A program made the translations under genes and the position numbers. Shown piece by piece: positions 1-14,763 of a stretch of DNA of 64,000 bases. The notes beneath the pieces were generated by a model. The model did no database searches and had not been told where the DNA came from. It saw only the letters and a program-made list of their open reading frames with translations. Each line of letters starts with the position of its first letter. Position 1 is the stretch's first letter. This DNA is from an uncultured Muribaculaceae bacterium (GTDB taxonomy: Bacteria; Bacillota_I; Bacilli_A; RF39; UBA660), in the NCBI GenBank assembly GCA_964494015.1, contig CAZBQC010000001.1:7551-71550 (forward strand). Direction: 5' to 3'.

Positions 1-911
1 GAATCGATGAACCAACATTACAGATGACGATTGGTACTAATTCTAGTCCTTTTGTGGGACTGGATGGTAAGATCTTGACAGCGAGAAAGATCGAAGAGAG
101 ATTAGTCAAAGAAACCCAAAAAGATGTCAGTTTAAGAGTTGAACCATACGATAAAGAAAGTTTCTTAGTTAGTGGTCGAGGAGAGTTACATTTAGGGATT
201 CTAGTTGAAAACATGCGTCGTGAAGGTTTTGAGATCGAAATTAGTAAACCGGTTGTCATTATTAAGGAAGTTGACGGGATTAAGATGGAGCCTTATGAAG
301 AGTTACAAGTTGAAGTACCAGAAGAGACAGTCGGTAATGTCATCGAGGAGTTAGGACAGCGTGGTGCGATCATGGAAAACATGACTAATTTTGGCAATCA
401 GGCCCGAATTATTTATTCGATTTCCTCTCGTGGTTTAATTGGCTTTATGACTGATTTTATGACTCTAACTAAAGGTTATGGAATTATCAATCACAGTTTT
501 AAGGAGTATCGTCCATATCAAAATATTGTCATCGGAGAGAGGACTTTAGGAGTACTTGTTTCATCAGAAACGGGGAAGGCGACAGCTTATGGAATTGGAC
601 AGTTAGAAGATCGTGGAGTTATGTTTATCGAACCAGGAACTGATGTTTATCAAGGAATGATCGTTGGAGAGTGTAATCGTGATCATGACTTAGCTATCAA
701 TATCGTAAAAGGTAAACAGCTTACCAACATGAGAGCAGCCGGAAGTGATCATACCGTCGTATTAAAGAGACCAAGACCAATTACTCTAGAATATGCCATG
801 GAATACATCAATCACGATGAATTAATTGAAGTGACACCAAACTATATTAGATTACGAAAAAGACTCCTTAATGCTCTTGATCGCAAGAAAAATGAGATAA
901 GAAATAATTAA
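1..911 (+). CDS. typA: Translational GTPase TypA/BipA, C-terminal part. The gene is 5' partial and continues upstream of the window.
   Basis: The open frame reaches the window edge. The sequence is BipA C-terminal-like (GRGELHLGILVENMRREGFE, RPITLEYAMEYINHDELIEVTP). The stop is at 909-911. Confidence 0.85.
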   Translation, partial: IDEPTLQMTIGTNSSPFVGLDGKILTARKIEERLVKETQKDVSLRVEPYDKESFLVSGRGELHLGILVENMRREGFEIEISKPVVIIKEVDGIKMEPYEELQVEVPEETVGNVIEELGQRGAIMENMTNFGNQARIIYSISSRGLIGFMTDFMTLTKGYGIINHSFKEYRPYQNIVIGERTLGVLVSSETGKATAYGIGQLEDRGVMFIEPGTDVYQGMIVGECNRDHDLAINIVKGKQLTNMRAAGSDHTVVLKRPRPITLEYAMEYINHDELIEVTPNYIRLRKRLLNALDRKKNEIRNN

Positions 912-915
912 AAAT

Positions 916-957
916 AAGTATCAGTATAAAAAAAATACTAGTACTTATTTTTATTTT
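916..957 (+). terminator. Rho-independent terminator of typA.
   Basis: Stem AAGTATCAGTAT / ATACTAGTACTT (5+5 bp with a 2-nt internal mismatch) around an A8 loop, followed by ATTTTTATTTT. Confidence 0.55.
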
Positions 958-1006
958 GTGTTATGATATTCGTGTATAATATGTAAAAGATAGGAGACTA
1001 TTTATG
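925..1006 (+). repeat. Copy 1 of a duplicated ~80-nt upstream block: terminator-like ACTAGTACTTATT, an extended -10 promoter (TGTTATGAT / TATAAT) and an RBS.
   Basis: About 80% identical to 2150-2230. Both copies end in GGAGACTATTTATG / GGGGACTATTTATG. Confidence 0.7.
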
Positions 1007-1942
1007 AGTAAAAAGATTATTTTTTCCTTGATATTGTTTGTTGGAGTTTTTTTTGCGTTTGGTATAAGAGTTAAAGCCGTAAATTGTTTTTATCATAAAT
1101 ATGATTCAAATACAAGTGGACCAGATTCTACCATAAGCTTAAATATTAATAATTATGGTACTCAATCTGCTACTGTTACATTAATGGCTACGCCTGAAAA
1201 GATAACACCTGACTCAGCAAAATATGCTGACTTGACAAGCATCGATTTACTGACAGAAAAAAAAATAGGTTTTTATTACGAACAAGCAGCTCTTGGGGGT
1301 GATTATCAAGTTGAAGGAGATAGATTTATAACTTTTAGTGGAGATAGTTGTAAAGATGGAAAATGTTGCCCGCTGTATGTTGGATTTAATGTTCATAGTC
1401 CTAATGAAGAAGGTCAAGAGTATAATCCAAATATTTTTATTGTTGGTGATAATATTATTACTAGGGTAGAAGGAAGTTTCTTACCGACAGGTAATACCAT
1501 ACTTCCCGTTAAAGAAAATTGGAAAACATCTGGTGTCAGCTCAAAATCAGAAATCCCAACGATATTTACGCCACAATATATTTATGGAACATACATTGTA
1601 GATGAGGAAAAAACGGAAGATAAAATTGATAAATATGAAGGTCTTATTGGAACAGATGTTGAAAATACTTGTGAAGGTATTTTAGGTAAAGATTTCGTTG
1701 ATTTTATGAATAACTATATATTTTTGCCTCTAAAAATCATTGTACCGATATTGTTCTTGATATTTACAATTTTAGATTTTTCCAAAGCTGTTTTTGCAGA
1801 AGATAAGGATGCTCTTAAACATGCCCAATCTAAACTTATTAAAAGAGCGATTACTGTAGTTTTGTTATTTTTACTTACATATGTTTTAGATCTACTGTTT
1901 GCAATAGTTACTAATGGAAGAATTACTGATTGTTTTAAGTAG
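1004..1942 (+). CDS. T4SS-associated secreted surface protein, paralog A. It has a signal peptide, a variable ectodomain and a conserved C-terminal two-helix membrane hairpin.
   Basis: N-terminal signal peptide MSKKIIFSLILFVGVFFAFGIRVKA. The last ~100 aa (ENTCEGILG...TNGRITDCFK) are conserved with 2228-3175. There are two hydrophobic helices separated by a charged loop. An RBS (AGGAG) lies 8 nt upstream. Confidence 0.5.
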   Translation: MSKKIIFSLILFVGVFFAFGIRVKAVNCFYHKYDSNTSGPDSTISLNINNYGTQSATVTLMATPEKITPDSAKYADLTSIDLLTEKKIGFYYEQAALGGDYQVEGDRFITFSGDSCKDGKCCPLYVGFNVHSPNEEGQEYNPNIFIVGDNIITRVEGSFLPTGNTILPVKENWKTSGVSSKSEIPTIFTPQYIYGTYIVDEEKTEDKIDKYEGLIGTDVENTCEGILGKDFVDFMNNYIFLPLKIIVPILFLIFTILDFSKAVFAEDKDALKHAQSKLIKRAITVVLLFLLTYVLDLLFAIVTNGRITDCFK

Positions 1943-2149
1943 GCTTTTTGTGATGAAAAAGGAATTTTTACTATTAATTACTAAGATACTTTTTTATTAA
2001 TATTCATTAAAAGATTTTATTGATTTTGTATTTTTAATAAAAGGATACAAGATTGCTGTTACTGTGAAAATGTTGTGATATTTATTTTTTAGATATTTTT
2101 ATTTACTTTTACATGAGCTATTACATTATATTATTGGTTATATTTTCAT

Positions 2150-2230
2150 AAAAATACACTAGTACTTATTCTTATTTTATGTTATGATATTTGTATAAAA
2201 TATATTGAAGACGATAGGGGACTATTTATG
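2150..2230 (+). repeat. Copy 2 of the duplicated upstream promoter block.
   Basis: See 925-1006. Confidence 0.7.
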
Positions 2231-3175
2231 AACAGAAAAATTATTTTTTCATTAATCTTGTTTATTGGAGTATTCTTTGTGTTTGGTGTAGAAGTTAAAG
2301 CTGCTGATGAATATAGCTGTACATATTATAAATATAATGGTGGGGATGAATCTGGAAATATAGTATATCGAGATGATAAAGAATTAACTATTGTAAACTA
2401 TAATCAAGCGGATTTAGGAGTTTACTTTAACGGTATAAAAATCTTTGGAAATCAAATCGCTAGTGGTCCCTTAAGAGGTGGAGAAGTAGCATCTTCAAAA
2501 AACGAAAACATTACATTTGCTGCTGATACTCTCGTCGTCTCGAGAGTAGCTAATAAGATAGATTTTCACGATGATGTTATTAATTTTGGATATTGTCCAA
2601 AGTATGTTGGATTTTATATTGTATATTTTCCTTTTGATACCGCGTATATTTATTTTCATATTGCTGGCAGCTCTATACCTGCTCATACTCCACCTGCTGC
2701 TAACGGTGTTTGGCTTTCTGTTATGAATTCGGGAGAGAAGTTGATTTCTGGAACCGATAATAAATCCGATCAAAATGAGAATTATTATGGGTTATACATT
2801 TCTGATGCAGCCATTAAAGAGCAGAATCCCGATTTTGTGTCTAAAACAAAAGGTATAGTTTTGGAATATTCTGGTATTATTGGAACTCCAGTTGAAAATA
2901 CTTGTGAAGGTATTTTAGGACAAGAGTTTATCAATTGGTTAGTTGATTATATATTTAATCCTTTGAAAATAATTTCTCCAATATTACTTTTAATCTTTAC
3001 GACCTTAGATTTTGCTAAAACAGTATTTGGAGAAGATCAAGAAGCTCTTAAAAAGGCTCAATCTAATTTTATAAAAAGAACTATTGCTGTTGTTTTATTG
3101 TTTTTGCTTGCATATATCTTGGATCTTGTTTTTACAATAGTTACCAACGGAAGAATTGATGTCTGTATCAAATAA
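2228..3175 (+). CDS. T4SS-associated secreted surface protein, paralog B. The ectodomain has diverged and the C-terminal hairpin is conserved.
   Basis: Signal peptide MNRKIIFSLILFIGVFFVFGVEVKA. It shares the CP(L/K)YVGF and ENTCEGILG...IVTNGRI C-terminal module with paralog A. Confidence 0.5.
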   Translation: MNRKIIFSLILFIGVFFVFGVEVKAADEYSCTYYKYNGGDESGNIVYRDDKELTIVNYNQADLGVYFNGIKIFGNQIASGPLRGGEVASSKNENITFAADTLVVSRVANKIDFHDDVINFGYCPKYVGFYIVYFPFDTAYIYFHIAGSSIPAHTPPAANGVWLSVMNSGEKLISGTDNKSDQNENYYGLYISDAAIKEQNPDFVSKTKGIVLEYSGIIGTPVENTCEGILGQEFINWLVDYIFNPLKIISPILLLIFTTLDFAKTVFGEDQEALKKAQSNFIKRTIAVVLLFLLAYILDLVFTIVTNGRIDVCIK

Positions 3176-3202
3176 AGTTTATTTCAGTTAAGGAGGTAAT
3201 TC

Positions 3203-5494
3203 ATGTTTGTATTTATATTGGCTGGAGATAGTATAGAAAACTGGATTCGTCAAATCTTTGTTAGTATTGATGTGGGAATTTTTTGGCTATTTGAACAGGT
3301 GTTAGCAAATGTTTTTGTTGTAGCTGGAGTAACTATTTTTAATGAAAAAATTATTAATGAAGTGCTAAATAGAATTTATATAATTATAGGATTATATATT
3401 ACATTTAAATTAGCTTTTTCGATTATCACTTATATTGTTTCTCCTGATAAAATGTCTGATCAGGAACAGGGGTTTGGTAAAATTATTACTAGAGTAATTA
3501 TCGCTTTATCACTTTTAGTTTTAGTTCCCTCTATTTTTGATTATGCTCGGAAAGCTCAATTTTATATTCTTCCAGTAATTCCTAGAATTATCTTGGGAAT
3601 ATCTTTTAACGCTGATGATCCTTCAAATGAAACGAATGAGATCAGTGAATCTACTATTAAACAAATTGCCCAAGCGATGTCATTAAATACTTATTTATCT
3701 GTTTTTAATTATAACACAAACTGTAATGATGCACATAATACGATTGCAGGTACTCCTGAAGCAACGGATCCAAACCAATTTTTAGTTGGCAAAATGAGTC
3801 ATATTTATGGAGCAGTCAATATTATGTGTGGTACTACTGAGGACGAATATAAATTTCAATACACCACATTTGTTGGTTTGGTTTTAGGATGCTTTTTAAC
3901 TTATATGATGTTGGGGATATCCATTGATGTGGCTATTCGAGCAATTAAGCTTGGTTTATTAGAGTTATTAGCTCCGATACCGATTATGAGTTATATTGAC
4001 CCAAAGTCTTCTAAAGATGGGGCATTTAGTAACTGGGTCAAATACTCGATATCAACCTATGTTGATTTGTTTGCCAGAATAAGTATTATATATTTAGTTA
4101 TCTTTTTCTTTGATCAATTATTCCAAGGGAATGTTCTAGGTGAATATGGTGCTCTTGTTTATATATCAATTATTGTTGGAATCTTTTTCTTTATGAAACA
4201 GTTTCCTAAGTTTATCAAAGATATCCTTGGATTAAAAGGTGAAGGACACATGTTTAGGGATGTTCTTACAGGGCGTGGCACTTTTGGATTGGCTACTGGT
4301 ACAATTGGAGGGGCTTACAAAGCTAAAAAAGAAGGTGGGTCAGCATTCCTTGGAGCTATAGGTGGTTTAGGGGGATCTACAAAAAAGTTTCTTAGTAATG
4401 CTGTGAAGGATGAAAGAGGGGGTACAGTTAGACCTGGTGCTAAAGCTGGAGAAGAAGTAGCTAAAGTTAATACCGGTTTTCGTGGAAGAATGAATAGGGC
4501 GGCTGGTGGAGCAAGAGCTAATAGATTAGGATATACACAATCACGAGTTGACGACTTGAGATCAGCTACGGAAAAGGCTAAATTGTTAGCAGATCAAGCT
4601 GGAAAAGAGTATAGTGCTGCTGTAACCTCTCGTAGACCTGCTTCCGAAGTTGATGCGGCACAAGCAAAGTATGATACGGCAAGGGAAGGTTATGAAAATA
4701 TTAATAAACGATATACACAGTTTAAGGGTGCCCGAGATAGTATGGTAAAAGAAATGCCGGCTGGAGAACAAATTGAAGCCGACAAAAAAGTAGCTCGGGG
4801 AAGATTAAAAACTGAGTATAAAGAGAACTTGGGTGCTGCTAGAAGTGAAAGAAAAGAAGTGGCTAGGGAAGCAAAAGAAGCTAGAATAGGTCTAAGAGAG
4901 AGTTATGAAAGTGAAGTGGAACCAGTTTTAAAAAGAAGAACAAAAACTGGTACTAGTGTAAAAAAAATTAATGACGCTATTAGAGATGAAAATGTAAAAC
5001 TAAGCAGAATACAAAGTGATATAGCTGATAGTCAAGGACTTCTTGATGAGTTAGAAGTCGATGGAGATCCTGCCGATGCTTCCAAAATTACTGAGTTAAG
5101 AGCTCACATTAGTGAAAAAGAATTAGAAAAATCAGATATAGAAAACGAAATAAAATTAAAACAAGAGGAGTTGCCAAGTGCAGAAAGAAAGTTTAAAAGA
5201 GCTAATCAAGATGTAAATAGAATAGAGGGGAAATATAGCGCATCTAAAAGAGGAATTAACGCTGCTGCTGCTGGAAATATAGGAGTAGCTAAGCAAAATA
5301 TTAGTGATTTAAAAGATGCTTATAGTAATGCTAAGGAATCAATTGATTCTGGTACTTATCTATTTAGTTCTTCGTCAACATCAAGTCCAGCACCAGCACC
5401 AAGTCCTGCATCAGCGCCAACAACTCCTGAGCCTTCTGCTGAAACTTCTCGATTGGATACTGTTCGACCTGGTGATGACGATGATGTCATGTGA
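3203..5494 (+). CDS. VirB6/TrbL-like polytopic membrane protein with a ~430-aa charged, disordered C-terminal extension.
   Basis: 6-7 predicted TM helices in the first ~340 aa. It sits in a T4SS gene context. The rest is K/E/A/R-rich coiled-coil-like sequence ending in a Pro/Ser-rich and acidic tip (SSPAPAPSPASAPTTPEPS...DDDDVM). RBS AGGAGG. Confidence 0.5.
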   Translation: MFVFILAGDSIENWIRQIFVSIDVGIFWLFEQVLANVFVVAGVTIFNEKIINEVLNRIYIIIGLYITFKLAFSIITYIVSPDKMSDQEQGFGKIITRVIIALSLLVLVPSIFDYARKAQFYILPVIPRIILGISFNADDPSNETNEISESTIKQIAQAMSLNTYLSVFNYNTNCNDAHNTIAGTPEATDPNQFLVGKMSHIYGAVNIMCGTTEDEYKFQYTTFVGLVLGCFLTYMMLGISIDVAIRAIKLGLLELLAPIPIMSYIDPKSSKDGAFSNWVKYSISTYVDLFARISIIYLVIFFFDQLFQGNVLGEYGALVYISIIVGIFFFMKQFPKFIKDILGLKGEGHMFRDVLTGRGTFGLATGTIGGAYKAKKEGGSAFLGAIGGLGGSTKKFLSNAVKDERGGTVRPGAKAGEEVAKVNTGFRGRMNRAAGGARANRLGYTQSRVDDLRSATEKAKLLADQAGKEYSAAVTSRRPASEVDAAQAKYDTAREGYENINKRYTQFKGARDSMVKEMPAGEQIEADKKVARGRLKTEYKENLGAARSERKEVAREAKEARIGLRESYESEVEPVLKRRTKTGTSVKKINDAIRDENVKLSRIQSDIADSQGLLDELEVDGDPADASKITELRAHISEKELEKSDIENEIKLKQEELPSAERKFKRANQDVNRIEGKYSASKRGINAAAAGNIGVAKQNISDLKDAYSNAKESIDSGTYLFSSSSTSSPAPAPSPASAPTTPEPSAETSRLDTVRPGDDDDVM

Positions 5495-5531
5495 TTTTGG
5501 TATTATGAAAATTAAAGGAGTGTGATACTTA

Positions 5532-5846
5532 ATGAATAACTATTTAATTCCAGCTAACAGCAAAAAAGGTCAATTAATTTTTGGTATCTTCAAAGGTGAT
5601 GATTTGATTATTTTTGGTGTTGGTGTTGGAGCGACATTACTAGCCTTGATAATTTTTCCTACTACCGATATAGTGACTGGAATACTTTGTCTATTACCGG
5701 CATTGGTAGCGGCACTTTTAGTATTTCCAGTTGCTAACTATCATAATGTTCGGACGGTTATCAAGGAAGTAATAAAATTTTACAGTGAGTCAAGAAGATA
5801 TATATGGAAAGGTTGGTGTTCTTCATATGAGCCAAAAAAGAAGTAA
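5532..5846 (+). CDS. Small two-TM membrane protein, VirB3/PrgI/TcpE-like.
   Basis: 104 aa with two hydrophobic helices. It lies immediately upstream of VirB4, as in Tn916 orf17/orf16. Confidence 0.45.
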   Translation: MNNYLIPANSKKGQLIFGIFKGDDLIIFGVGVGATLLALIIFPTTDIVTGILCLLPALVAALLVFPVANYHNVRTVIKEVIKFYSESRRYIWKGWCSSYEPKKK

Positions 5847-6378
5847 TTCTAGGTATACCGAAGATTGGATTCCAATCAAAGGTATTAGTGATGGTTCGAT
5901 TTTACTACCTAATAATTATCGAGTTACAGGTGTCAAAATCACTCCTCGAAATATCTTTATTATGGATGATTTGGAGCAAGAAAATGTTATGACGGCTCTA
6001 AAGAATTTCTATAATATGCTTAATTTTGAATTTTGGCTTATTGTGGCAGATCGTCCAGTTGACATATCGGTCTATTTATCCCAGTTGCAACTTTTATACA
6101 ACGATGCCTCTAATCAAGCCATTCGTAAATTAATTAATCAGGATATTAATAAAGCTAATATGTTTATTAATAATAATGTTGTCGATACGGAATATTACTT
6201 ATTATTTAGAGATAAAGATCCGGAGATTATTCAGAAGAAAGTTCGTTTGTTAATTAATGGGCTTGGAAGTTGTGGGCTTAATGCCAGTAAGACAACTGAT
6301 GATGATCTGAGAATAATTCTAGATAATTTCTTAAATGGTGGGGTTAGGACAGAATTTGGAACGGTGGTGCCACTATGA
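5785..6378 (+). CDS. VirB4-family conjugal transfer ATPase, N-terminal segment (separate ORF).
   Basis: The sequence DWIPIKGISDGSILLPNNYRVTGVKITP resembles the N-terminus of Gram-positive VirB4/TraE proteins. Its TGA stop overlaps the ATG of the next ORF (ATGA). The start is uncertain: GTG at 5785 or ATG at 5827. Confidence 0.5.
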   Translation: MSQEDIYGKVGVLHMSQKRSNSRYTEDWIPIKGISDGSILLPNNYRVTGVKITPRNIFIMDDLEQENVMTALKNFYNMLNFEFWLIVADRPVDISVYLSQLQLLYNDASNQAIRKLINQDINKANMFINNNVVDTEYYLLFRDKDPEIIQKKVRLLINGLGSCGLNASKTTDDDLRIILDNFLNGGVRTEFGTVVPL

Positions 6379-8159: not shown

Positions 8160-8188
8160 AAACAATTAATAGTAGGAGGTGACTTGGA

Positions 8189-10567
8189 ATGGATTTATCT
8201 GCACAAAGGAAAAAATTACTAGATCGTAACAATCTAGTAAAAAATCAAAGAAAAAATATTAGTAATAGTAATTCTAATTCTAATTTTAATTCTAATGAAC
8301 AAGACACCTCTAATCCGCTTGCCAATCGTAAACCTCATCCTAATAAATCACTTTTTGGTCGATCAGATGGGGTTGATAAAAATCAAGACTCAAGTGATGA
8401 AACAAAAGATTCTAGTGAACCAGCAAGTACTGCTGGTAATAGCAATGCTGATACTAGTGATGAGTCAACTGATCTTTTAGGTGGTCTTAACAATCAGGTT
8501 TCAGGTAAGATTAAGGGGACTTTGGTTACTAAAGCGTTAGCAGTCGCTAGTCCTTTCCTTTTTGTAGGCATTTTCGTTGTCATTATTATCATTATTGTTA
8601 TTATTGAGTTAAAAAAATATTTACCATTTTTAAGTTATGGTGCTAATACCACTATTAGTGTTAATGCTAATAATACATCTTATAACTCTGTTACTCATAC
8701 GACTTCTGAAACTGATCCATTAAGAGCAAAAGAAGATCTCTTTAATCAAAAATTGGATGAAGTTTGGAATGTTTTCAACGACAAAGCCAATGTAAGTATC
8801 GATATTGATTATATTATCGGAGCTTTGTTTTATGACAAGATTGATCTCCAATTTTTAGAGTCGGAAGATTTGACGACTGAAGAAGTGACCGGTACTTATA
8901 AGAATGGTCTTGAAAAGATTTACATTTTGGCTCAGTATCAAGTTACTACTCACATCTATGAAAATAATGATAGTGGTGAATCTTCAGTTGATCCTACTGA
9001 AAAAAGAGAAGTAGCTAAAAATGATGCATCTGATACTGCTGAGACCTGGTATAAAGAAATTTTTAATGGTACTTGGAATTATGAAGAAGCTAATTTTCAA
9101 ACCCATTATGGAGAATTTGAAAATTTAGATACAGTTTATACCGTCGATGTTTCTAAGAAAGGGGTTTTTTATTGGAATTTAGTTGATGGGGATTTTATTA
9201 CTACTTATTATGCCAATCAATTTACTTCTGATATGACCGATGCTCAAAGAGAGGCTAAAAAAATTATTATTGCCGATAGAATATATCAGTTTGTTGAAGA
9301 CTTTAAAAAAGTTAAAAATAAAAATTATGGATATTTAACTGATGGATTAAAGGTTAATTTATATACCTGTGACTATAATGAAACACTTTATTTCCTTGGT
9401 GGTAACGGGTATAGTGTTTCTACTCTCGCCAATGAAGGAACAAGTTATCCGACTTACACTAATTTTAAAAATTATGTTAAGGGTGCTATTTATGGAGAAA
9501 TACCGTCTAGTATGAATGAAAATACTAAGGAGTCGGTTAAAGCGTTTATTATTGCTTTTAGTAGCTATGCTTTAGCTAGATCTAGTTACAGTAGTGGTGC
9601 TACTGAAATTGATGTCCATGTGGGAAATTGTTGGCAATTATCGTGTGATCCTTTATTAGGATGCCAATATTGCAATAGTAAAATTGGAAAATACGGTACG
9701 AATATAACTGGTGTAGATTCAACCTGTCCACATGGTAGGATTTGGTCGCCAAGAGAACCACTTGACGAGGCAACTAATGCTTGGTTCGATTCAGTTGTCG
9801 ATGAAGTTTTCGGTACAGTTATGATGAATGCTTCAGGAAATTTCTTTCGTGCTGGTCATTATGATAAAAAATCCAACCCAAATTGTGGAGCTAATTGCAT
9901 GGGGCAGGCTGATGCTGTTAAGGATGCTGCAAATGGCATGACTTATGAGCAAATTTTAGCTAAGTATTATTCTGGCTATGAGCTTGTCAATATTAAAGAA
10001 GATTTGTATATCCAAAATGCTAATTATGGTAATGGTGGTGTCGTTCTCAACCAGCTTTTTCATTATCATCAGGGAGATTATACAGAACGTAACTTTTGTG
10101 GTAGATCTGATGCTAGTATTGCTTCATCAGGTTGCGGTGTCGTAGCCGGTGCTATTGCGGTCTCGCTTTTAAAAAACCAGGCTGTTGATCCTAAAACAGT
10201 TATGGAGTTTGCTCATGCCAATAAAATGTGTGGTTATGGTATAAGTGGTACAGATGCGGGAGTATATGAATTGCTGGCTAAGAAACATCAGTTAAATTAT
10301 TCAGTGACCTACAAAGATAATGCTGTTGCTGTTGTCGATGCTTTAAAGACTAGTAAAGCCGTGGTTGTTGCCCATATTCCAGCTGGTACCAGTGGAACTT
10401 ATTCCAGCGGTTCTGGACACTATATCGTTTTTGTGGCCATCAATGCTAATGGACAAGCTTTAGTCTGGGATCCAGGGTATCGAAATAATCCACAACGTGA
10501 TAATGCATGGCATGATATGAATGAATTAGTCAAATATACCGATGCATACTATATATTGTCGAGGTAA
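8189..10567 (+). CDS. T4SS cell-wall hydrolase (VirB1 functional analogue) with a SpoIID/LytB-like domain and a C39-like/papain-like cysteine peptidase domain.
   Basis: N-terminal NSNSNS low-complexity region and a single TM helix (FLFVGIFVVIIIIIVII). ALARSSY...NCWQLSCDP...ILAKYYSGYEL resembles SpoIID. CG...SGCGVVAGA...GHYIVFVAINANGQALVWDPG is a Cys/His/Asp triad layout of the C39_2 type. RBS AGGAGGTGA. Confidence 0.45.
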   Translation: MDLSAQRKKLLDRNNLVKNQRKNISNSNSNSNFNSNEQDTSNPLANRKPHPNKSLFGRSDGVDKNQDSSDETKDSSEPASTAGNSNADTSDESTDLLGGLNNQVSGKIKGTLVTKALAVASPFLFVGIFVVIIIIIVIIELKKYLPFLSYGANTTISVNANNTSYNSVTHTTSETDPLRAKEDLFNQKLDEVWNVFNDKANVSIDIDYIIGALFYDKIDLQFLESEDLTTEEVTGTYKNGLEKIYILAQYQVTTHIYENNDSGESSVDPTEKREVAKNDASDTAETWYKEIFNGTWNYEEANFQTHYGEFENLDTVYTVDVSKKGVFYWNLVDGDFITTYYANQFTSDMTDAQREAKKIIIADRIYQFVEDFKKVKNKNYGYLTDGLKVNLYTCDYNETLYFLGGNGYSVSTLANEGTSYPTYTNFKNYVKGAIYGEIPSSMNENTKESVKAFIIAFSSYALARSSYSSGATEIDVHVGNCWQLSCDPLLGCQYCNSKIGKYGTNITGVDSTCPHGRIWSPREPLDEATNAWFDSVVDEVFGTVMMNASGNFFRAGHYDKKSNPNCGANCMGQADAVKDAANGMTYEQILAKYYSGYELVNIKEDLYIQNANYGNGGVVLNQLFHYHQGDYTERNFCGRSDASIASSGCGVVAGAIAVSLLKNQAVDPKTVMEFAHANKMCGYGISGTDAGVYELLAKKHQLNYSVTYKDNAVAVVDALKTSKAVVVAHIPAGTSGTYSSGSGHYIVFVAINANGQALVWDPGYRNNPQRDNAWHDMNELVKYTDAYYILSR

Positions 10568-10569
10568 AA

Positions 10570-11274
10570 ATGAAAAAATATAAATTATTGTTTTTAGTTA
10601 TATTGGTAGTTATTTTAACTGGTTGTCAAAGTACGACTAGTATTATAATTAATAAAGATTTATCAGTTAGTGAAGAAACATGGATCACTCAGGATACTGA
10701 GTTTTGGAATAATTTCTATAAGACTAGTCCGGCTTCATTAATTAATGAAGCTTTAAGTGATGAAAAGAATAAAAAGTTCTTAATCGATAACAATTATACT
10801 TATCGTACTGAGATTAGTAATTCTTTCAAAGGAGTAATTTTAGAAAAAAATTATTCATCACTGGAAGAATACTCTTCCAATTCAGCTTTAGCTAAAATAC
10901 CTTTTGATAAGTTAATCTATCAACAAAATGGAAATATTATTTCAGTTAAAACGGAAGGATTTAATTCATATCAAGACATAGTGGAAGATTTAGATGCCAT
11001 TTTAGTCAAATATGCCAAAATAAGTGTTTCAGTTCCTTATATTGTAACAGAACATAATGCTGATAAAGTCGATAAGGTAAATAATGTTTTTACTTGGGAA
11101 ATTGATAAAGAAACGACGGAAAAAAGTATTGTTTTAGAGTTTGATCAAAGTCGTTTGTTTATTAAACATCTTGATTTATATATATCTTTGGGAATAATTT
11201 TATTACTTTTAAGCATTCTTGGAGTGTGGTATTTAAAAATTCGAAAAAGTAATAAAATTAATAATAGAATTTAA
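10570..11274 (+). CDS. T4SS-associated lipoprotein with an additional C-terminal TM anchor. It is a possible VirB8/TcpC-position protein.
   Basis: Lipobox LTGC at residues 16-19 and a C-terminal hydrophobic helix LGIILLLLSILGVWYL. It sits between the hydrolase and the T4CP. Confidence 0.4.
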   Translation: MKKYKLLFLVILVVILTGCQSTTSIIINKDLSVSEETWITQDTEFWNNFYKTSPASLINEALSDEKNKKFLIDNNYTYRTEISNSFKGVILEKNYSSLEEYSSNSALAKIPFDKLIYQQNGNIISVKTEGFNSYQDIVEDLDAILVKYAKISVSVPYIVTEHNADKVDKVNNVFTWEIDKETTEKSIVLEFDQSRLFIKHLDLYISLGIILLLLSILGVWYLKIRKSNKINNRI

Positions 11275-11282
11275 AAGGTTTT

Positions 11283-11292
11283 GTGTTATAAT
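11283..11292 (+). promoter_or_regulatory. Extended -10 promoter (TGTTATAAT) for the coupling-protein gene.
   Basis: TGn + TATAAT lies 35 nt upstream of the GTG start. RBS AGGAGG at 11313-11318. Confidence 0.4.
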
Positions 11293-11326
11293 ATTCCTAG
11301 TTAATGAGCTTTAGGAGGTATGAGTC

Positions 11327-14290
11327 GTGAAATTAAAAATTAGAGCAGAATCAAAAGATGCTACAATCTTCATCATTTTTGCAGTTTTTCTTTTATATTT
11401 AGTAGCAGTCGGAGTACTTAATTTATCTAGTTTTGCCAGTTTTGGTGAATTTTATGGTTTAAATCCAATTGAAGCCTTTTCAGGTCGTTTTATTGTCCCA
11501 ACTATTATCTTTTATTTAATCGCTTTAGGCTCACTCTTCTTTACGACGGGATCATACTTTTTTGATTTAGAAGAGGGGATTGGTTTTTCTATCGGTTCAA
11601 AAAAAGAAAAGGGTTATAGTCGCTGGGCAACGGCTAAAGAAATGAAGAAAGAGTTAAAACTTGTTTATCCTCATGAAGAGAATTCTAGATATGCGGGTAT
11701 TCCTCTTATTAATAATGGTAAAGAAATCTGGGTTGACGACAGTCATTACCATAATTTAGTTATCGGTTCAACGGGTAGTGGTAAGACAACAGCTGTTATT
11801 TTCCCGATGGTCAGATTGCTTGCTAAACATAATGAATCAATGATTATTACCGATCCTAAAGGTGAAATTTATGAAAAGATGGCTGTCATGCTTAAATCAC
11901 GTGGTTACAATATCGTTTTATTGAATTTCCGTAATCCTCAAAATGGTAATTCATGGAATCCATTATCGATGCCATATAATCTATATAAAAATGGCAATCA
12001 GGATAAATCAATCGAGTTACTTGATGACTTAGCGCTTAATATCTTGTATGATGAAACTAATAAAAATGCCGATCCTTTCTGGGAAAAGACCTCGGCCGAT
12101 TATTTTTCTGGTATTGCTCTAGGTCTATTTGAGGATGCTGATCCGTCACAAATCAATATCAACAGTATCAGTTTAATGTCGACAGTCGGCGAAGAAAAAT
12201 TTGGTGGTTCGACCTATATTAAAGAATATTTTAATGGAAAAGATCCTACTGGTTCAGCCTTCATCAATGCTTCCAGTACGATTTTGGCACCAAGTGAAAC
12301 CAAGGGAGGGATTCTAGCTGTCTTTAAGCAAAAGATAAAACTTTTCGCTTCTCGTGAAAACCTATCAGAAATGCTTTCACATAGTGATTTTGATTTGTCG
12401 GATATTGGTAAAAAGAAAACCGCTTTATTCATCATTATTCAGGATGAGAAGAAAACCTATCATTCTTTGGCGACAATCCTTTTAAAACAGTGTTATGAAA
12501 CTTTAATCGACGTGGCTCAAGATAATGGTGGCGAACTGCCCATTAGAACTAATTTCTTAGTTGATGAGTTTGCCAATATGCCACCTTTAAAAGATATTGA
12601 CGTTATGATTACAGCAGCTCGAAGTAGAAAAATTCGTTTTACTTTGATCATTCAAAACTTTGCTCAGTTAAATGAAATTTATGGTAAAGAAACAGCTGAA
12701 ACTATTAAGGGTAACTGTGGAAATATGCTTTATTTGATCAGTACCGAGTTAGCTGCTTTGGAAGAGATAAGTAAAATGTGTGGTGAAGTAAAATCTAAAG
12801 AGAAGGATAAAACTGCTTCGACACCATTAATTACCGTCACTGATTTACAAAAATTAAAGTTAAATGAGGTCATTATCCGAAGAATTCGTCTTTCGCCATT
12901 TAAGACTAAATTAAAGGCCGAATACGAAATGAATTGGGGAAGAACTTATCCGAAAGCTCAGTATCCAGTTCGTGAAAAACAACCGATCAATATCTTCGAT
13001 ATGAGGACTTTTGTCAAAGAAAAAAAGAAAGCTAAGATGAATGAAATTTTGAATATGGATGCCAGTGGCAGTGATCCAATGGGAGGGTTTAATCCTAATA
13101 TGCCACCGTTCTTTAATCAAAATATGTTTAACAGTGAATCGCCGCCAGTTCAGGCTAATCCATATGGGATGAATGATCTTCCTCCTAATAATAACGATTT
13201 TAATATCGATGACTTGGTTAAGAAAATTGATCAGAAGATTGCTGAACTGGAAGAGGAAGAAAAAAGAAATAATCTGGCCATCGCAGCTGAGAATACCAAT
13301 TTACTGGAAGAACCAAAGGCAAGTCCTAATTTAGATCAAGCTATGGACAATTTTAAAATTGATCAGCCAATGATGGAAGAAAAACAGGTTGCTGAAGTCA
13401 GTCCTAGTCCAGGACCAGTATCATCGGAAAAAATTGTTGATTCTGATGTCGTCAATCAACCAAAAAACAATATTTTAGAAGCGGTCCCAATTCCAAACAA
13501 TAATTATTTTGAACCAATTTCTAAGAAGGAAGTTGTGCCAGCTAATATTAATTATCGTGATTTATATAATGACGAAGAAGATTCTGGCGGTGCGGTTCGG
13601 GAGATGGATAATATCAATCCCAAGGCTATTTATAACGTTTTAGAATCAACTAATTATGAATTGCCTAAAGAAGATAGACCGATTATTAAGGATGAGAAAC
13701 CTTTAGAAGACAAGGTAGTGGTAAGTGAACCAGTTAAGGAGGAACAACCAATACTAAATGCTGATTCCATACCAGTTAATGAAGAGGAGATTAATGATTT
13801 ATTTAAGAGTTTGAAAAATAATGTCGAGGAAGAAACTTTCTTTGATCAAAGAACACCTTTAAATAACAGTTTCAGTAGTCGACCTCGCTGGTTTGCTGTC
13901 GAAGAAGAGAACCAAGGTTATACAGCAGTTAGAAGACCAAAATCAAATAATCAGAACTCAGCTTTTGATTCAACTAACCACCCTAATGATAAAGTTTTTG
14001 ATAAGGGTTTGCCAGAAGATAGTTTTATCAGTCAGGAAACAGTCAATTTAAAACCAGTTGATCAACCAGTGGTAGTTGAGAAAGTAAAGTTGGAAACTGA
14101 TGATCTGTTTAAACCTAAAGACGCTAATCTCAATTGGTTTTCCGAACACGAAAATGATATAAAAAGTACAACTTTAGCAATTAATCCGGAAAATCTTCAA
14201 GAAGATATCAAGCAAGAAACCGTTAATGAAGAAACCGAATATAACGAAATAACTGATGATCAATTCTTTGATGATTTCTTTGATGACTAG
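11327..14290 (+). CDS. Type IV coupling protein (VirD4/TraG-like ATPase) with a very long acidic disordered C-terminal tail.
   Basis: N-terminal TM helices. Walker A LVIGSTGSGKTT, a DPKGE motif and Walker B LVDEFANMP. About 430 C-terminal residues are low complexity (N/P/E/D-rich) and end in DDQFFDDFFDD. Confidence 0.7.
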   Translation: MKLKIRAESKDATIFIIFAVFLLYLVAVGVLNLSSFASFGEFYGLNPIEAFSGRFIVPTIIFYLIALGSLFFTTGSYFFDLEEGIGFSIGSKKEKGYSRWATAKEMKKELKLVYPHEENSRYAGIPLINNGKEIWVDDSHYHNLVIGSTGSGKTTAVIFPMVRLLAKHNESMIITDPKGEIYEKMAVMLKSRGYNIVLLNFRNPQNGNSWNPLSMPYNLYKNGNQDKSIELLDDLALNILYDETNKNADPFWEKTSADYFSGIALGLFEDADPSQININSISLMSTVGEEKFGGSTYIKEYFNGKDPTGSAFINASSTILAPSETKGGILAVFKQKIKLFASRENLSEMLSHSDFDLSDIGKKKTALFIIIQDEKKTYHSLATILLKQCYETLIDVAQDNGGELPIRTNFLVDEFANMPPLKDIDVMITAARSRKIRFTLIIQNFAQLNEIYGKETAETIKGNCGNMLYLISTELAALEEISKMCGEVKSKEKDKTASTPLITVTDLQKLKLNEVIIRRIRLSPFKTKLKAEYEMNWGRTYPKAQYPVREKQPINIFDMRTFVKEKKKAKMNEILNMDASGSDPMGGFNPNMPPFFNQNMFNSESPPVQANPYGMNDLPPNNNDFNIDDLVKKIDQKIAELEEEEKRNNLAIAAENTNLLEEPKASPNLDQAMDNFKIDQPMMEEKQVAEVSPSPGPVSSEKIVDSDVVNQPKNNILEAVPIPNNNYFEPISKKEVVPANINYRDLYNDEEDSGGAVREMDNINPKAIYNVLESTNYELPKEDRPIIKDEKPLEDKVVVSEPVKEEQPILNADSIPVNEEEINDLFKSLKNNVEEETFFDQRTPLNNSFSSRPRWFAVEEENQGYTAVRRPKSNNQNSAFDSTNHPNDKVFDKGLPEDSFISQETVNLKPVDQPVVVEKVKLETDDLFKPKDANLNWFSEHENDIKSTTLAINPENLQEDIKQETVNEETEYNEITDDQFFDDFFDD

Positions 14291-14354: not shown

Positions 14355-14648
14355 ATGGATACCATCGCCGTTATCGACTTTAAAAAAATAACTGGTATGG
14401 TTAAAGTAATAGATTTAAGAGATAATTATAAATATAATTTAAATAAAATACCTAATTCTATCAATGTACCATTTAGTTTTCTCATTACCAATCCTGATGA
14501 TTATATCAATAAAAATGATACTTACTATTTAATTTGTGAGTATGGTAAAAAGAGTTTAGAAGTCTCTAAGATTCTCAATCGACAAGGTTATAAAACGATT
14601 AGTATCTTAGGAGGATATCGAGATTATCAAAAAGAAGTTTCTGATTAA
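14355..14648 (+). CDS. Single-domain rhodanese-like sulfurtransferase.
   Basis: 97 aa with an active-site Cys loop CEYGKKS. RBS AGGAGGGAG. Confidence 0.6.
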   Translation: MDTIAVIDFKKITGMVKVIDLRDNYKYNLNKIPNSINVPFSFLITNPDDYINKNDTYYLICEYGKKSLEVSKILNRQGYKTISILGGYRDYQKEVSD

Positions 14649-14659
14649 ACTTCTTTTTT

Positions 14660-14760
14660 GATGATTAAATGATGATAAATTGAAGATAACCCAATTTATC
14701 TAAGAAAGATAAATATAACAAGTGAAGATAAATAATTAAAATCATCACTAAATATCTATT
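14660..14760 (+). repeat. Cluster of GATAAAT-like iterons with one 9-bp inverted repeat.
   Basis: GATAAAT at 14674, 14708 and 14727, with GATGATTAAAT / GATGATAAAT in tandem. Inverted repeat GATAAATTG (14674-82) / CAATTTATC (14692-14700). Confidence 0.4.
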
Positions 14761-14763
14761 ATG

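What the first reader, a model, noticed from the sequence alone, without database searches (positions are those of the whole stretch)
925..3175. A tandem gene-plus-promoter duplication encodes two surface proteins with diversified ectodomains and a conserved C-terminal two-helix membrane hairpin.
Genes 1004-1942 and 2228-3175 share a signal peptide and a C-terminal ~100 aa module. The module is ENTCEGILG, then helix 1, a charged loop, helix 2 and finally TNGRI..C.K. Their ~190-aa ectodomains have diverged, and only CP(L/K)YVGF is retained. Each gene is preceded by the same ~80-nt block of terminator-like ACTAGTACTTATT, TGTTATGAT and an RBS. The C-terminal hairpin has the topology of VirB2/TrbC pilins. 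A pilin-like anchor carrying a large variable displayed domain would be an unusual T4SS adhesin or receptor-binding subunit. The duplication could reflect diversifying selection for recipient or target specificity.
Basis: partly seen in the sequence, partly recalled or inferred. Interest (0 to 1): 0.7.

Follow-up and report, generated by a model that had tools for sequence, protein, structure and literature searches.

The report
Tandem pilin-like T4SS surface protein genes
Two neighbouring genes at the head of a chromosomal type IV secretion gene cluster in an uncultured gut-type Bacillus-class bacterium encode exported proteins that join a fast-evolving outer domain to a conserved membrane hairpin related to conjugative (VirB2-type) pilins, which reviews say Gram-positive bacteria largely lack.

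Summary
Genes 1004-1942 and 2228-3175 are real paralogs (BLASTP E=2e-58). Signal peptides match at 19/25 residues and the C-terminal 102 aa at 69%, but the ectodomains at only 23%. A 75-78 nt upstream block is duplicated at 83% identity.

The C-terminal module folds as a confident two-helix hairpin (pLDDT 89-95). A module profile finds about 6,000 representative proteins, and profile searches link it to Pfam T4SS_pilin (PF18895). The window genes score below Pfam's threshold; a 54%-identical relative passes. Among the 150 best representatives, 117 carry long N-terminal ectodomains, so the architecture is common in metagenomes but I found no description of it.

The genes head a chromosomal cluster: large membrane protein, VirB3-like, TrsD-like, VirB4, wall hydrolase, lipoprotein, VirD4. 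It has no relaxase or integrase and sits between bipA and polA. Relatives share this layout, which resembles the Patescibacteria T4SS with pilin arrays.

Caveat: many more distant homologs lie between housekeeping genes with no T4SS within about 10 kb. Tandem pairs with conserved anchors and diverged ectodomains recur in eight other MAG loci.

Best reading: variable pilin-like adhesin or receptor-binding subunits. Filament assembly is untested.

The parts
906..956 (+). Intrinsic terminator hairpin of the upstream bipA/typA gene (arms 906-927 and 935-956, then a U-run). Its 3' arm contains ACTAGTACTTATT (937-949).
   Evidence: Inverted repeat I2, 86% complementary. RNA fold dG -15.4 kcal/mol. 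The same arrangement is present in L001.
929..1003 (+). Upstream block, copy A: extended -10-like TGTTATGAT (959-967), second -10-like TATAAT (975-980), Shine-Dalgarno AGGAG (992-996).
   Evidence: 65/78 identical to 2150-2227. This is more conserved than synonymous sites of the adjacent coding sequence (pS 0.56). The block is also conserved in the related locus L001. The promoter assignment is by inspection; the consensus scan did not list it.
1004..1942 (+). Gene A, 312 aa: signal peptide (aa 1-25, nt 1004-1078), ectodomain (aa 26-210), pilin-like module (aa 211-312, nt 1634-1939). Cys at 28, 116, 121, 122, 223, 310.
   Evidence: NCBIfam and Pfam give only weak hits.
1943..2149 (.). 207-nt AT-rich spacer of unknown origin between the two duplicated units. 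It carries a weak AT-rich hairpin at its 5' end.
   Evidence: No similarity above shuffles to the bipA end, to the region after gene B or to the T4SS cluster, and no ORF. No Rfam match.
2150..2227 (+). Upstream block, copy B: ACTAGTACTTATT (2158-2170) without a 5' partner arm, TGTTATGAT (2180-2188), Shine-Dalgarno AGGGGA (2216-2221).
   Evidence: The aligned part (2121-2309) is identical in the independent contig L002.
2228..3175 (+). Gene B, 315 aa: signal peptide (aa 1-25), ectodomain (aa 26-213), pilin-like module (aa 214-315, nt 2867-3172). Cys at 31, 123, 226, 313. Only 27 nt separate it from the next gene, with no terminator.
   Evidence: (AF2: helices 232-268 and 271-305, pLDDT 89-95). 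Pfam T4SS_pilin E=0.0015-0.019, below the gathering score.
3203..5494 (+). 763-aa membrane protein with a coiled-coil, low-complexity C-terminus, in the VirB6 position. Its N-terminal hairpin (aa 49-114) weakly resembles the pilin module.
   Evidence: Pfam T4SS_pilin E=9e-4 on aa 49-114. hhalign of the module profile against an N-terminal alignment: probability 55%, E=1.2e-4. No TrbL/VirB6 family hit, and no BLASTP similarity to pRE25 TraL, so the VirB6 role is inferred from position only.
5532..5846 (+). 104-aa PrgI/VirB3-like small membrane protein.
   Evidence: Pfam PrgI E=0.035, weak. Conserved in L001, L027 and L028.
5785..6378 (+). 197-aa TrsD-like protein (stand-alone VirB4 N-terminal domain). 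It overlaps the VirB4 start (ATGA).
   Evidence: NCBIfam VirB4_plasma positions 95-276, E=7.7e-15. The homolog in L001 carries PF26593 TraC-like. The split is conserved in L001, L027, L028 and L031-33. The TrsD concept is from PMC12102498.
6375..8159 (+). VirB4-type ATPase, 594 aa.
   Evidence: NCBIfam VirB4_plasma E=4.7e-106 and CD1110 family E=1.3e-48. 24% identity, E=9e-24 to pRE25 TraE.
8189..10567 (+). 792-aa probable cell-wall hydrolase (VirB1-like role).
   Evidence: Weak Pfam Peptidase_C39_2 and SpoIID hits. The homolog in L031 carries PF08486 SpoIID.
10570..11274 (+). 234-aa lipoprotein with a C-terminal membrane segment.
   Evidence: Lipobox LTGC seen in the translation. Weak Pfam LPAM_1 hit. 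Conserved in relatives.
11327..14290 (+). VirD4-type coupling protein, 987 aa, with a long low-complexity acidic C-terminal extension.
   Evidence: Pfam T4SS-DNA_transf E=3e-55. NCBIfam CD1115 family 294 bits, above the cutoff of 250.

Best explanation
Genes A and B are paralogous subunits of the adjacent chromosomal type IV secretion system.

Proposed steps:
1. Each protein is exported by Sec. The signal peptide is probably cleaved after VKA.
2. The protein stays in the membrane through a C-terminal VirB2-superfamily (Pfam T4SS_pilin-like) helical hairpin. Topology: TM1 out-to-in, a short basic cytoplasmic loop (EDxxALKKAQSxFIKR), then TM2 in-to-out.
3. A conserved cysteine just before TM1 and another just after TM2 both lie outside. 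They probably form a disulfide that staples the hairpin ends, a functional analogue of the head-to-tail cyclisation of T-pilin and TrbC.
4. The roughly 190-aa N-terminal ectodomain has its own conserved cysteine pair (C-x-Y ... C-P-x-Y). It is displayed on the cell surface.
5. If the hairpins are recruited by the VirB4 ATPase and the large membrane protein into a VirB2-like fibre or stalk, the ectodomain would lie on the outside of that fibre.
6. The ectodomain is the contact (adhesin or receptor-binding) part. It diversifies quickly while the hairpin, signal peptide and promoter are conserved.
7. The old tandem duplication (dS about 1) gives the cell two specificities or antigenic forms. Gene B is probably co-transcribed with the machine. 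Gene A has its own copy of the promoter.

Shown: the paralogy, the domain layout, the helical hairpin prediction, the homology to the T4SS_pilin family, the linkage to the T4SS in this clade, purifying selection on the module, and rapid ectodomain turnover.

Inferred: signal peptide cleavage, the disulfides, recruitment by the T4SS, fibre formation and the adhesin role.
For: Module and family:
- AF2 with a 150-sequence alignment predicts two long helices, 232-268 and 271-305, at pLDDT 89-95. Hydropathy shows exactly the signal peptide plus two membrane segments.
- A module profile finds 5,969 representatives at E<=1e-3, and in all of the top 150 the module lies at the C-terminus.
- The profile hits PF18895-annotated roughly 100-130-aa proteins at E 6e-31 to 1e-16. 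P0155, 54% identical to the module, scores 29.3 bits against the PF18895 gathering score of 26.6.
- C226 is invariant and C313 is at least 90% conserved across 150 proteins.

Linkage to the T4SS:
- In the window the genes sit immediately upstream of the T4SS genes. The same holds in L001, L002, L024, L027 and L031-33.
- L027 has a bare 138-aa form plus a 403-aa long form. L031-33 have 103-aa and 132-aa bare forms in the same position.
- The gap between gene B and the next gene is 27 nt and has no terminator.

Selection and turnover:
- Module dN=0.20, dS=1.0.
- Between the window and L001: VirB4 93%, TrsD-like 90%, BipA 91%, VirD4 78%, module 62%, and the ectodomains are not alignable.
- Eight other tandem pairs have modules 68-99% identical but ectodomains only 13-35% identical.

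Precedents in the literature:
- Patescibacteria have a chromosomal, relaxase-poor T4SS of the Gram-positive/archaeal mating-pair class MPF-FATA, with arrays of 2-11 divergent VirB2-like pilins (PMC12102498). One such array is essential (PMC12857230).
- Bartonella Trw carries variable VirB2/VirB5 copies (PMC12857230).
- pIP501 TraB is an essential protein with a signal peptide and a two-helix hairpin, both termini outside (PMC9083827).
Against: - Neither window protein reaches Pfam's gathering score for T4SS_pilin (15.5-19 bits against 26.6).
- No sequence link to solved VirB2/TraA structures. Foldseek on the model returns only generic membrane hairpins at E of about 7.
- hhalign against pIP501-type TraB (CagC family) is not significant.
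- Many more distant homologs are not near any T4SS gene. L007, L014 and L017 have a DnaD-like gene, then the gene(s), then thrS. L005 has lon, then the gene, then a LemA gene.
- The ectodomain is modelled at pLDDT below 50, so nothing supports an adhesin fold.
- No bare short pilin-like gene exists in the 64-kb window. A fibre would therefore have to be built from subunits that each carry about 20 kDa, which is unprecedented.
- No relaxase is present, so the substrate and purpose of the T4SS are unknown.
Confidence: 0.55

Rival explanations
1. They are membrane-anchored surface adhesins or receptors that never polymerise. The pilin-derived hairpin serves only as a membrane anchor and perhaps as a docking element to the T4SS membrane protein. 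The ectodomain mediates contact with target cells or host surfaces.
For: - The ectodomain (about 190 aa here, up to about 480 aa elsewhere) is large for a pilus subunit.
- Many homologs lie away from T4SS genes.
- The N-terminal hairpin of the 763-aa protein resembles the module, which suggests hairpin-hairpin packing in the membrane rather than fibre growth.
Against: - Bare 100-140-aa family members occupy the same position in related T4SS clusters and look like ordinary VirB2-type pilins.
- The strong conservation of the loop and of the Cys pair is more than a simple anchor would need.
Confidence: 0.25
2. They are general cell-surface proteins of this bacterial lineage and are functionally unrelated to type IV secretion. 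Their adjacency to the T4SS in this clade would be a historical accident of gene order.
For: - At least 13 loci with at least 5 kb of downstream flank show no VirB4, VirD4 or VirB6-position homolog.
- A conserved DnaD-like gene, then the gene(s), then thrS is seen in L007, L014 and L017.
- L005 has the gene between lon and a LemA gene.
Against: - Homology to the T4SS_pilin family.
- Immediate adjacency, same strand and a 27-41 nt gap to the first T4SS gene in the window and L001, and the same position in L024, L027 and L031-33, across PolA or VirB4 divergence down to about 60-70%.
- L028 carries both the DnaD-like context and the T4SS 6 kb away.
- In Patescibacteria too, only 1,135 of 1,948 assemblies with pilin genes have one near virB4.
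Confidence: 0.12
3. They are exclusion or self-recognition proteins. Each would interact with the variable extracellular parts of the neighbouring VirB6-position protein to block or direct transfer between kin cells, by analogy with the exclusion lipoprotein of ICEBs1, which acts on that element's VirB6-like ConG protein (recalled from the literature, not checked here).
For: - The genes lie directly upstream of the VirB6-position gene, which also evolves fast (52% identity between the window and L001, against 93% for VirB4).
- The ectodomains are variable.
Against: - No mobile element is evident, so there is no obvious need for exclusion.
- The module belongs to a pilin family.
- Bare forms without any ectodomain occupy the same position in relatives.
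Confidence: 0.06
4. The tandem arrangement is an assembly artefact that joins two strain alleles.
For: The source is a metagenome-style contig. The conserved gene ends could in principle mislead an assembler.
Against: - A unique 207-nt spacer joins the copies.
- The independent contig L002 reproduces the spacer end, gene B and the next gene; the two proteins are 100% identical and the aligned upstream DNA is identical.
- The shared parts are only 74-84% identical at the DNA level.
- Nine other loci have tandem pairs.
Confidence: 0.02

Closest known systems
Pfam T4SS_pilin (PF18895) proteins and the VirB2-like pilin arrays of Patescibacteria T4SSs (PMC12102498; PMC12857230)
   Same: - Signal peptide followed by a two-helix hairpin with a basic loop.
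- Linked to PF18895-annotated proteins at profile level.
- Tandem, sequence-divergent copies.
- Located next to a chromosomal T4SS with VirB6-position, VirB3/PrgI, TrsD, VirB4, hydrolase and VirD4 genes; no relaxase here, and none in most Patescibacteria clusters.
   Different: - The host is a Bacillota bacterium with sporulation genes (SpoIVB, SpoVID-N), not a Patescibacterium.
- The window proteins carry a roughly 190-aa N-terminal ectodomain, whereas the T4SS_pilin-type proteins recovered here are small, about 100-130 aa.
- They score below Pfam's gathering score.
TraB of pIP501/pRE25 (Pfam T4SS_CagC, PF16943), a small essential T4SS protein of Gram-positive conjugative plasmids (PMC9083827)
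   Same: - Cleaved signal peptide, two membrane helices, cytoplasmic loop, both termini outside.
- Encoded at the head of a transfer operon with the order TraB, TraC, TraD, TraE; TraE is VirB4-like. Equating TraC with VirB3 and TraD with TrsD is recalled from the literature, not tested here.
   Different: - No significant sequence or profile similarity (hhalign probability 1.4%).
- TraB is 80 aa when mature and has no ectodomain.
- It is plasmid-borne and sits beside a relaxase.
Agrobacterium VirB2, RP4 TrbC and F TraA conjugative pilins
   Same: - Helical hairpin with both ends outside and a basic loop.
- Encoded with VirB4 and VirB6.
- The conserved Cys pair could mimic the cyclisation of T-pilin and TrbC (inference).
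   Different: - Only one relative gave even a weak TrbC (PF04956) hit, E=0.003.
- No match to solved pilins by sequence or Foldseek.
- Those pilins are diderm systems with no N-terminal globular domain.
Bartonella Trw system with multiple variable trwL (VirB2) and trwJ (VirB5) copies
   Same: Tandem amplification and diversification of surface-exposed T4SS subunits, proposed to widen target specificity (PMC12857230).
   Different: In Bartonella the variation lies in small pilins and in a separate VirB5 adhesin. Here the adhesin-sized domain and the pilin-like hairpin are one polypeptide.

Membership tests
Pfam T4SS_pilin (PF18895) | The sequence scores at or above the family's gathering score (26.6 bits). 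| tested here: not met
   Gene B scores 15.5 bits for the full protein and 19.0 bits for the module alone. Gene A gives no hit.
Pfam T4SS_pilin (PF18895) | Homology to accepted members, shown by profile search. | tested here: met
   The A4 module profile hits PF18895-annotated proteins P0155 (5.6e-31), P0162 (6.5e-24), P0167 (1.1e-22) and others. P0155 is 54% identical to the module and scores 29.3 bits on PF18895.
Pfam T4SS_pilin (PF18895) | Small protein of about 100-130 aa: a signal peptide plus the hairpin only (the size of the T4SS_pilin-type proteins recovered). | tested here: not met
   The window proteins are 312 and 315 aa with roughly 190-aa ectodomains. Bare forms do exist in relatives.
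VirB2/TrbC conjugative pilins (PF04956) | Two hydrophobic helices joined by a short basic loop, after a cleaved signal peptide. | tested here: met
   AF2 helices 232-268 and 271-305 at pLDDT 89-95. Hydropathy agrees. Signal peptide cleavage was not tested.
VirB2/TrbC conjugative pilins (PF04956) | Sequence match to the TrbC/VirB2 model or to solved pilins. | tested here: not met
   No PF04956 hit for the window proteins. One relative (P0010) scores E=0.003. The PDB profile search found nothing. Foldseek returned no pilin.
VirB2/TrbC conjugative pilins (PF04956) | Encoded with VirB4 and a VirB6-type gene. | tested here: met
   True in the window and in L001, L002, L024, L027 and L031-33. Not true for at least 13 more distant loci.
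VirB2/TrbC conjugative pilins (PF04956) | Polymerises into an extracellular, lipid-containing filament. | not testable with these tools
   Needs microscopy or biochemistry.
T4SS_CagC / pIP501 TraB family (PF16943) | Sequence similarity to TraB or CagC. | tested here: not met
   pRE25 TraB hits PF16943 at 1.3e-15. hhalign of the module profile against TraB gives probability 1.4%.
Conjugative element (ICE or plasmid) transfer module | A relaxase, plus an integrase or replication functions, associated with the T4SS. | tested here: not met
   All ORFs from 925 to 14290 are accounted for and none is a relaxase or integrase. The flanks are bipA on one side and rhodanese, polA and fpg on the other. 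The same locus is found in relatives. Of the rest of the window, 41 ORFs of 90 aa or more up to 51.8 kb were scanned and none is a relaxase. A relaxase elsewhere in the genome is not excluded.

The most novel reading that the evidence does not exclude
A lineage of uncultured gut Bacillota keeps a vertically inherited T4SS that lacks a relaxase. Its VirB2-type subunits each carry a hypervariable, adhesin-sized ectodomain, so the cell would build a 'decorated' T4SS fibre or stalk, combining pilin and adhesin in one chain. The fibre would serve cell-to-cell contact with partner or prey bacteria, as proposed for the Patescibacteria T4SS. This would be a second, independent case of a pilin-bearing T4SS in monoderm bacteria. 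It would also be a candidate source for the Patescibacteria pilins, whose origin is currently unexplained.
Probability: 0.2. Interest if true: 0.85.

Novelty: new variant of a known kind. Interest (0 to 1): 0.62.

Why it matters
A 2025 review states that VirB2 and VirB5 subunits are absent from Gram-positive T4SSs, with Patescibacteria as the single exception (PMC12857230). The Patescibacteria study could not say where those pilins came from, because the Gram-positive/archaeal MPF-FATA systems supposedly lack them (PMC12102498).

This locus shows T4SS_pilin-family genes at the head of a TrsD/VirB4-type, chromosomal T4SS without a relaxase in a Bacillota genome that carries sporulation genes. 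The same cluster with a bare pilin-like gene (P0248) was indexed in 681 blocks of the assembly collection.

If the proteins really work with the machine, three things follow:
- Pilin-like subunits are not foreign to monoderm T4SSs.
- A fusion of pilin hairpin and large variable domain is a common solution for surface display (117 of the top 150 representatives) that I did not find described.
- These reduced-genome gut Bacilli may use a T4SS for something other than conjugation.

The paired, rapidly diverging ectodomains also give a concrete handle for studying target specificity.

Tried and rejected
- **Shallow structure model.** AF2 with the 4-sequence alignment gave an unusable model (pLDDT 36.6).
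- **Fold search.** Foldseek against the PDB returned only sensory-rhodopsin-transducer hairpins at E of about 7. Helical hairpins are too generic, so I ran no further fold searches.
- **Solved structures by sequence.** The profile search of PDB sequences found nothing.
- **Plasmids.** tblastn of the module against 72,556 plasmids found no match.
- **Ectodomain homologs.** jackhmmer with either ectodomain against the 153 family proteins found only the query itself. No ectodomain family could be built, and ectodomain dN/dS is not computable because the sequences are not alignable.
- **Genome scan query.** A narrower alignment was used instead, and it did not recover the window's own genome.
- **Origin of the spacer.** I tested whether spacer 1943-2149 is a decayed copy of the sequence after gene B, as a simple tandem duplication would predict. 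It shows no similarity above shuffles.
- **Promoters, terminators and RNAs.** The consensus promoter/terminator scan found nothing in the conserved block or after the genes, so the promoter and terminator statements rest on inspection and folding. Rfam and tRNA scans were empty.
- **Similarity to pIP501-type components.** BLASTP of the 763-aa and TrsD-like proteins against pRE25 TraL and TraD found nothing. Only VirB4 matches TraE.
- **Rejected: split VirB4 as a frameshift pseudogene.** The split is conserved in six related loci and corresponds to the known TrsD plus VirB4 arrangement.
- **Organism name.** The PolA search gave only 'Bacilli bacterium'.


Full report
**1. Observation**

The region holds two intact + strand ORFs, 1004-1942 (312 aa, gene A) and 2228-3175 (315 aa, gene B). 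They are clear paralogs: BLASTP gives 39% identity, E=2e-58. The similarity is strongly regional:

| Region | Identical | z against shuffles |
|---|---|---|
| Signal peptide | 19/25 | 12.5 |
| Ectodomain (about 185-188 aa) | 48/208 | 3.7 |
| C-terminal 102 aa | 70/102 | 32 |

- The retained ectodomain motifs are C-x-Y near the N-terminus, CP(L/K)YVGF, and YG(T/L)YI(V/S)D.
- Upstream, 929-1003 and 2150-2227 are 65/78 identical. Both contain ACTAGTACTTATT, TGTTATGAT and a Shine-Dalgarno sequence.
- In the C-terminal module, dN=0.20 and dS=1.0. The duplication is therefore old and the module is under purifying selection.
- The non-coding block is better conserved (17% differences) than synonymous sites (56% differences). 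It is also conserved in a related species (L001). This argues that it is a functional promoter and leader.
- ACTAGTACTTATT is the 3' arm of the bipA terminator hairpin in copy A (906-927 / 935-956, dG -15.4). Copy B lacks the 5' arm.
- A 207-nt spacer (1943-2149) of untraceable origin separates the two units.
- Gene B is followed after 27 nt, with no hairpin of note, by the next gene.
- An independent assembly (L002) reproduces the spacer end, gene B and the next gene; both proteins are 100% identical and the aligned upstream DNA is identical.

**2. What the proteins are**

- Hydropathy shows exactly three hydrophobic stretches in each protein: the signal peptide and two C-terminal segments.
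- AF2 with four sequences was useless (pLDDT 36.6).
- AF2 with 150 family sequences predicted the C-terminal module confidently. Helices 232-268 and 271-305 have pLDDT 89-95. The ectodomain stayed below 50 apart from a beta-hairpin at the CP.YVGF motif.
- Direct family scans give only sub-threshold hits: Pfam T4SS_pilin PF18895 at 15.5-19 bits against a gathering score of 26.6, and NCBIfam MMCAP2_0566 (a mycoplasma ICE protein) at E about 0.003-0.012.
- The word-indexed search found only three other clusters with the same signal peptide and module and quite different ectodomains: P0002, P0003 (which is gene A itself) and P0004.
- An exhaustive HMMER search with the module profile found 5,969 representative proteins at E<=1e-3, of which 810 reach E<=1e-10.
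- In the top 150 the module is always C-terminal. Thirteen are bare forms of about 100-135 aa (signal peptide plus module). 117 have N-terminal extensions of at least 150 aa. 99 of 133 long forms share the early C-x-[YFW] and later CP motifs.
- A broader module profile hits many roughly 100-130-aa proteins that carry a precomputed PF18895 annotation, at E 6e-31 to 1e-16. P0155, 54% identical to the window module, passes the PF18895 gathering score.
- I therefore treat the module as a divergent member of the T4SS_pilin (VirB2-like) superfamily. The window proteins themselves fail the curated threshold.
- The cysteine before helix 1 is invariant, and the one after helix 2 is at least 90% conserved across 150 proteins. 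Both should be extracellular, which suggests a disulfide staple. This is inference.
- There is no sequence link to solved pilins and Foldseek is uninformative. pIP501/pRE25 TraB has the same topology and is essential for transfer (PMC9083827). It belongs to Pfam T4SS_CagC but is not detectably homologous to the module.

**3. Surroundings**

Downstream gene order:

| Coordinates | Product |
|---|---|
| 3203-5494 | 763-aa membrane protein |
| 5532-5846 | 104-aa PrgI/VirB3-like protein |
| 5785-6378 | 197-aa TrsD-like protein (VirB4 N-terminal domain) |
| 6375-8159 | VirB4 |
| 8189-10567 | 792-aa SpoIID/C39-like wall hydrolase |
| 10570-11274 | lipoprotein |
| 11327-14290 | VirD4 |

- There is no relaxase or integrase in the cluster.
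- The cluster lies between bipA (24-911) and rhodanese, polA, a cation-efflux gene and fpg.
- The rest of the window up to 51.8 kb is housekeeping, plus SpoIVB and a SpoVID-N/LysM protein. The host is therefore a Bacillota bacterium with sporulation genes.
- The nearest PolA relatives are 82% identical and then about 63% identical. The only organism name given is 'Bacilli bacterium'.
- L001 (PolA 82%, BipA 91%, VirB4 93%) has the same locus with a single pilin-like gene, again right after the bipA terminator.
- L027 has a bare 138-aa gene plus a 403-aa gene, then the same cluster, then rhodanese.
- P0248 is a 103-aa bare form indexed in 681 blocks of the assembly collection, on contigs up to 1.3 Mb. 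It heads the same cluster next to obg, rplU and rpmA.
- This is therefore a vertically inherited chromosomal T4SS of a clade of uncultured, mostly gut or rumen Bacilli (record titles).
- Its make-up (pilin-like genes, VirB6-position protein, VirB3/PrgI, TrsD, VirB4, hydrolase, VirD4; chromosomal; no relaxase) parallels the Patescibacteria T4SS described in PMC12102498.

**4. Evidence that cuts the other way**

- Of the 28 genome-collection loci, only L024, L027 and L028 carry T4SS genes like those in the window.
- At least 13 loci with at least 5 kb of downstream flank have none (L005-L010, L012, L014, L016, L017, L019, L021, L029).
- Pfam annotation shows housekeeping contexts. L007 runs gyrA, then a DnaD-like gene, then a tandem pair, then thrS. 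L017 runs ftsK, then a DnaD-like gene, then the gene, then thrS and pheT. L005 runs lon, then a 121-aa gene, then a LemA gene.
- L028 combines the DnaD-like context with the T4SS 6 kb downstream.
- Linkage to the T4SS therefore holds for the window's clade but not for the whole family. For comparison, in Patescibacteria 1,135 of the 1,948 assemblies with pilin genes have one near virB4.
- Whether the unlinked genomes have the T4SS elsewhere could not be checked.

**5. Pattern of variation**

- Between the window and L001, cytoplasmic parts are conserved: VirB4 93%, TrsD-like 90%, VirD4 78%.
- Exposed parts are not: module 62%, 763-aa protein 52%, hydrolase 50%, lipoprotein 50%. The ectodomains are unrelated in length and sequence. 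P0004 has an internal repeat of the C..CP unit and a poly-Asn linker.
- Nine further loci hold tandem pairs. In eight of them the modules are 68-99% identical while the ectodomains are 13-35% identical.
- Near-identical modules beside unrelated ectodomains (L025 at 99%, L003 at 93%) suggest gene conversion or cassette exchange between conserved flanks.
- The signal peptide is almost invariant between P0001, P0002 and P0004, which fits the same picture.

**6. Mechanism proposed**

- The proteins are Sec-exported.
- They are anchored by a VirB2-like hairpin with both ends outside and a basic loop inside.
- The hairpin ends are probably disulfide-stapled.
- The N-terminal ectodomain is displayed on the surface.
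- Most likely (0.55) they are the pilin-like, contact-making subunits of the adjacent T4SS. The two paralogs would give two specificities or antigenic forms.
- Gene B would be transcribed with the machine and gene A from its own promoter copy.
- A rough volume estimate of mine (not a tool result) suggests that a 20-kDa domain per subunit could fit around a VirB2-type helical fibre, but nothing here shows polymerisation.
- The main rival (0.25) is a non-polymerising anchored adhesin. Lesser rivals are a T4SS-unrelated surface protein (0.12), an exclusion or recognition factor (0.06) and an assembly artefact (0.02).

**7. Comparison with known systems, and novelty**

- The closest known kind is the VirB2-like T4SS_pilin family and its variable tandem arrays in Patescibacteria. 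Variable VirB2/VirB5 copies in Bartonella Trw are an analogous case (PMC12857230).
- The differences are the host phylum, the large N-terminal ectodomain fused to the hairpin, and failure of the curated Pfam threshold.
- The review literature says that VirB2 is absent from Gram-positive T4SSs except in Patescibacteria. However, pIP501 TraB already belongs to the CagC family.
- Searches for this system in uncultured Bacilli found no description.
'Unusual' is wrong in sequence space but right with respect to the described literature. Function remains inferred.
- Rating: a new variant of a known kind, with interest 0.62.

Noticed in passing
window 5785-6378 and 6375-8159: VirB4 is encoded as two overlapping ORFs (ATGA overlap): a 197-aa N-terminal-domain protein and a 594-aa ATPase. 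The split is conserved in L001, L027, L028 and L031-33. It corresponds to the TrsD plus VirB4 arrangement reported for pGO1-type and Patescibacteria T4SSs, so it is not a frameshift.
   Followed up: yes
window 925-14290 and flanks 24-911, 14355-19133: The whole T4SS cluster has no relaxase or integrase and lies between bipA and rhodanese, polA, a cation-efflux gene and fpg. The same chromosomal position is kept in relatives: L001 has bipA upstream, L027 has rhodanese downstream, and a PolA homolog is recorded on a contig of the same length as L001's. It looks vertically inherited rather than mobile.
   Followed up: partly
window 3203-3600 (aa 49-114 of the 763-aa protein): The N-terminal hairpin of the VirB6-position protein weakly resembles the pilin-like module. 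Pfam T4SS_pilin gives E=9e-4, and hhalign gives probability 55%, E=1.2e-4. A 182-aa ORF in L019 (1873-2421) matches both profiles.
   Followed up: partly
window 3203-14290 compared with L001: There is a steep conservation gradient between two related genomes. VirB4 is 93% identical, TrsD-like 90%, VirD4 78% and PrgI-like 75%. The 763-aa protein is 52%, the hydrolase 50% and the lipoprotein 50%. All exposed parts of the machine evolve fast, not only the pilin-like genes.
   Followed up: partly
window 12800-14290 (VirD4 aa ~500-987): The coupling protein carries a roughly 490-aa low-complexity, Pro/Asn/Glu-rich C-terminal extension that ends in an acidic DDQFFDDFFDD tail.
   Followed up: no
L007 7420-13620; L014 7643-14105; L017 4681-12326; L028 4759-10333: There is conserved synteny in other Bacilli MAGs: ftsK, a 175-aa ORF, a DnaD/DnaB_2-like gene, one or two module-bearing genes, then thrS in L007, L014 and L017. 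The family thus has a second, housekeeping-type chromosomal home. ftsK and the 175-aa ORF were identified in L017 and L028 only.
   Followed up: partly
L027 1997-8323: Directly upstream of the pilin-like genes and T4SS in this relative lies what looks, by inspection of the translations, like a Tad/Flp-type pilus cluster: a CpaF/TadA-like ATPase, two TadB/C-like membrane proteins, two small TadE-like proteins and a ParA/CpaE-like protein.
   Followed up: no
L031-L033 (P0248 at 8001-8312): A 103-aa bare pilin-like protein is indexed in 681 blocks of the assembly collection, on contigs up to 1.3 Mb. It heads the same T4SS type next to obg, rplU and rpmA. The system is therefore widespread in a common, small-genome gut organism.
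   Followed up: partly
window 19302-20153, 34876-35658, 35762-37215: Scattered phage- or mobile-type genes sit among housekeeping genes: a KilA-N domain protein, a Bro-N domain protein, and two RhuM-family genes, the second fused to a Fic domain.
   Followed up: no
window 40408-41400 and 44562-45266: A SpoIVB peptidase and a SpoVID-N/LysM protein indicate a sporulating, or formerly sporulating, Bacillota host.
   Followed up: no
window 27505-30357 and 47737-51042: Two large probable surface proteins: a 950-aa protein with four Big_2 repeats, and a 1101-aa protein with a DUF6273 domain.
   Followed up: no
window 937-949, 2158-2170; L001 ~427-466: The conserved ACTAGTACTT core contains overlapping palindromes (ACTAGT, AGTACT, TACTAGTA). 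It is kept perfectly in copy B although the terminator partner arm is missing. It could be a regulator binding site as well as a terminator arm.
   Followed up: no
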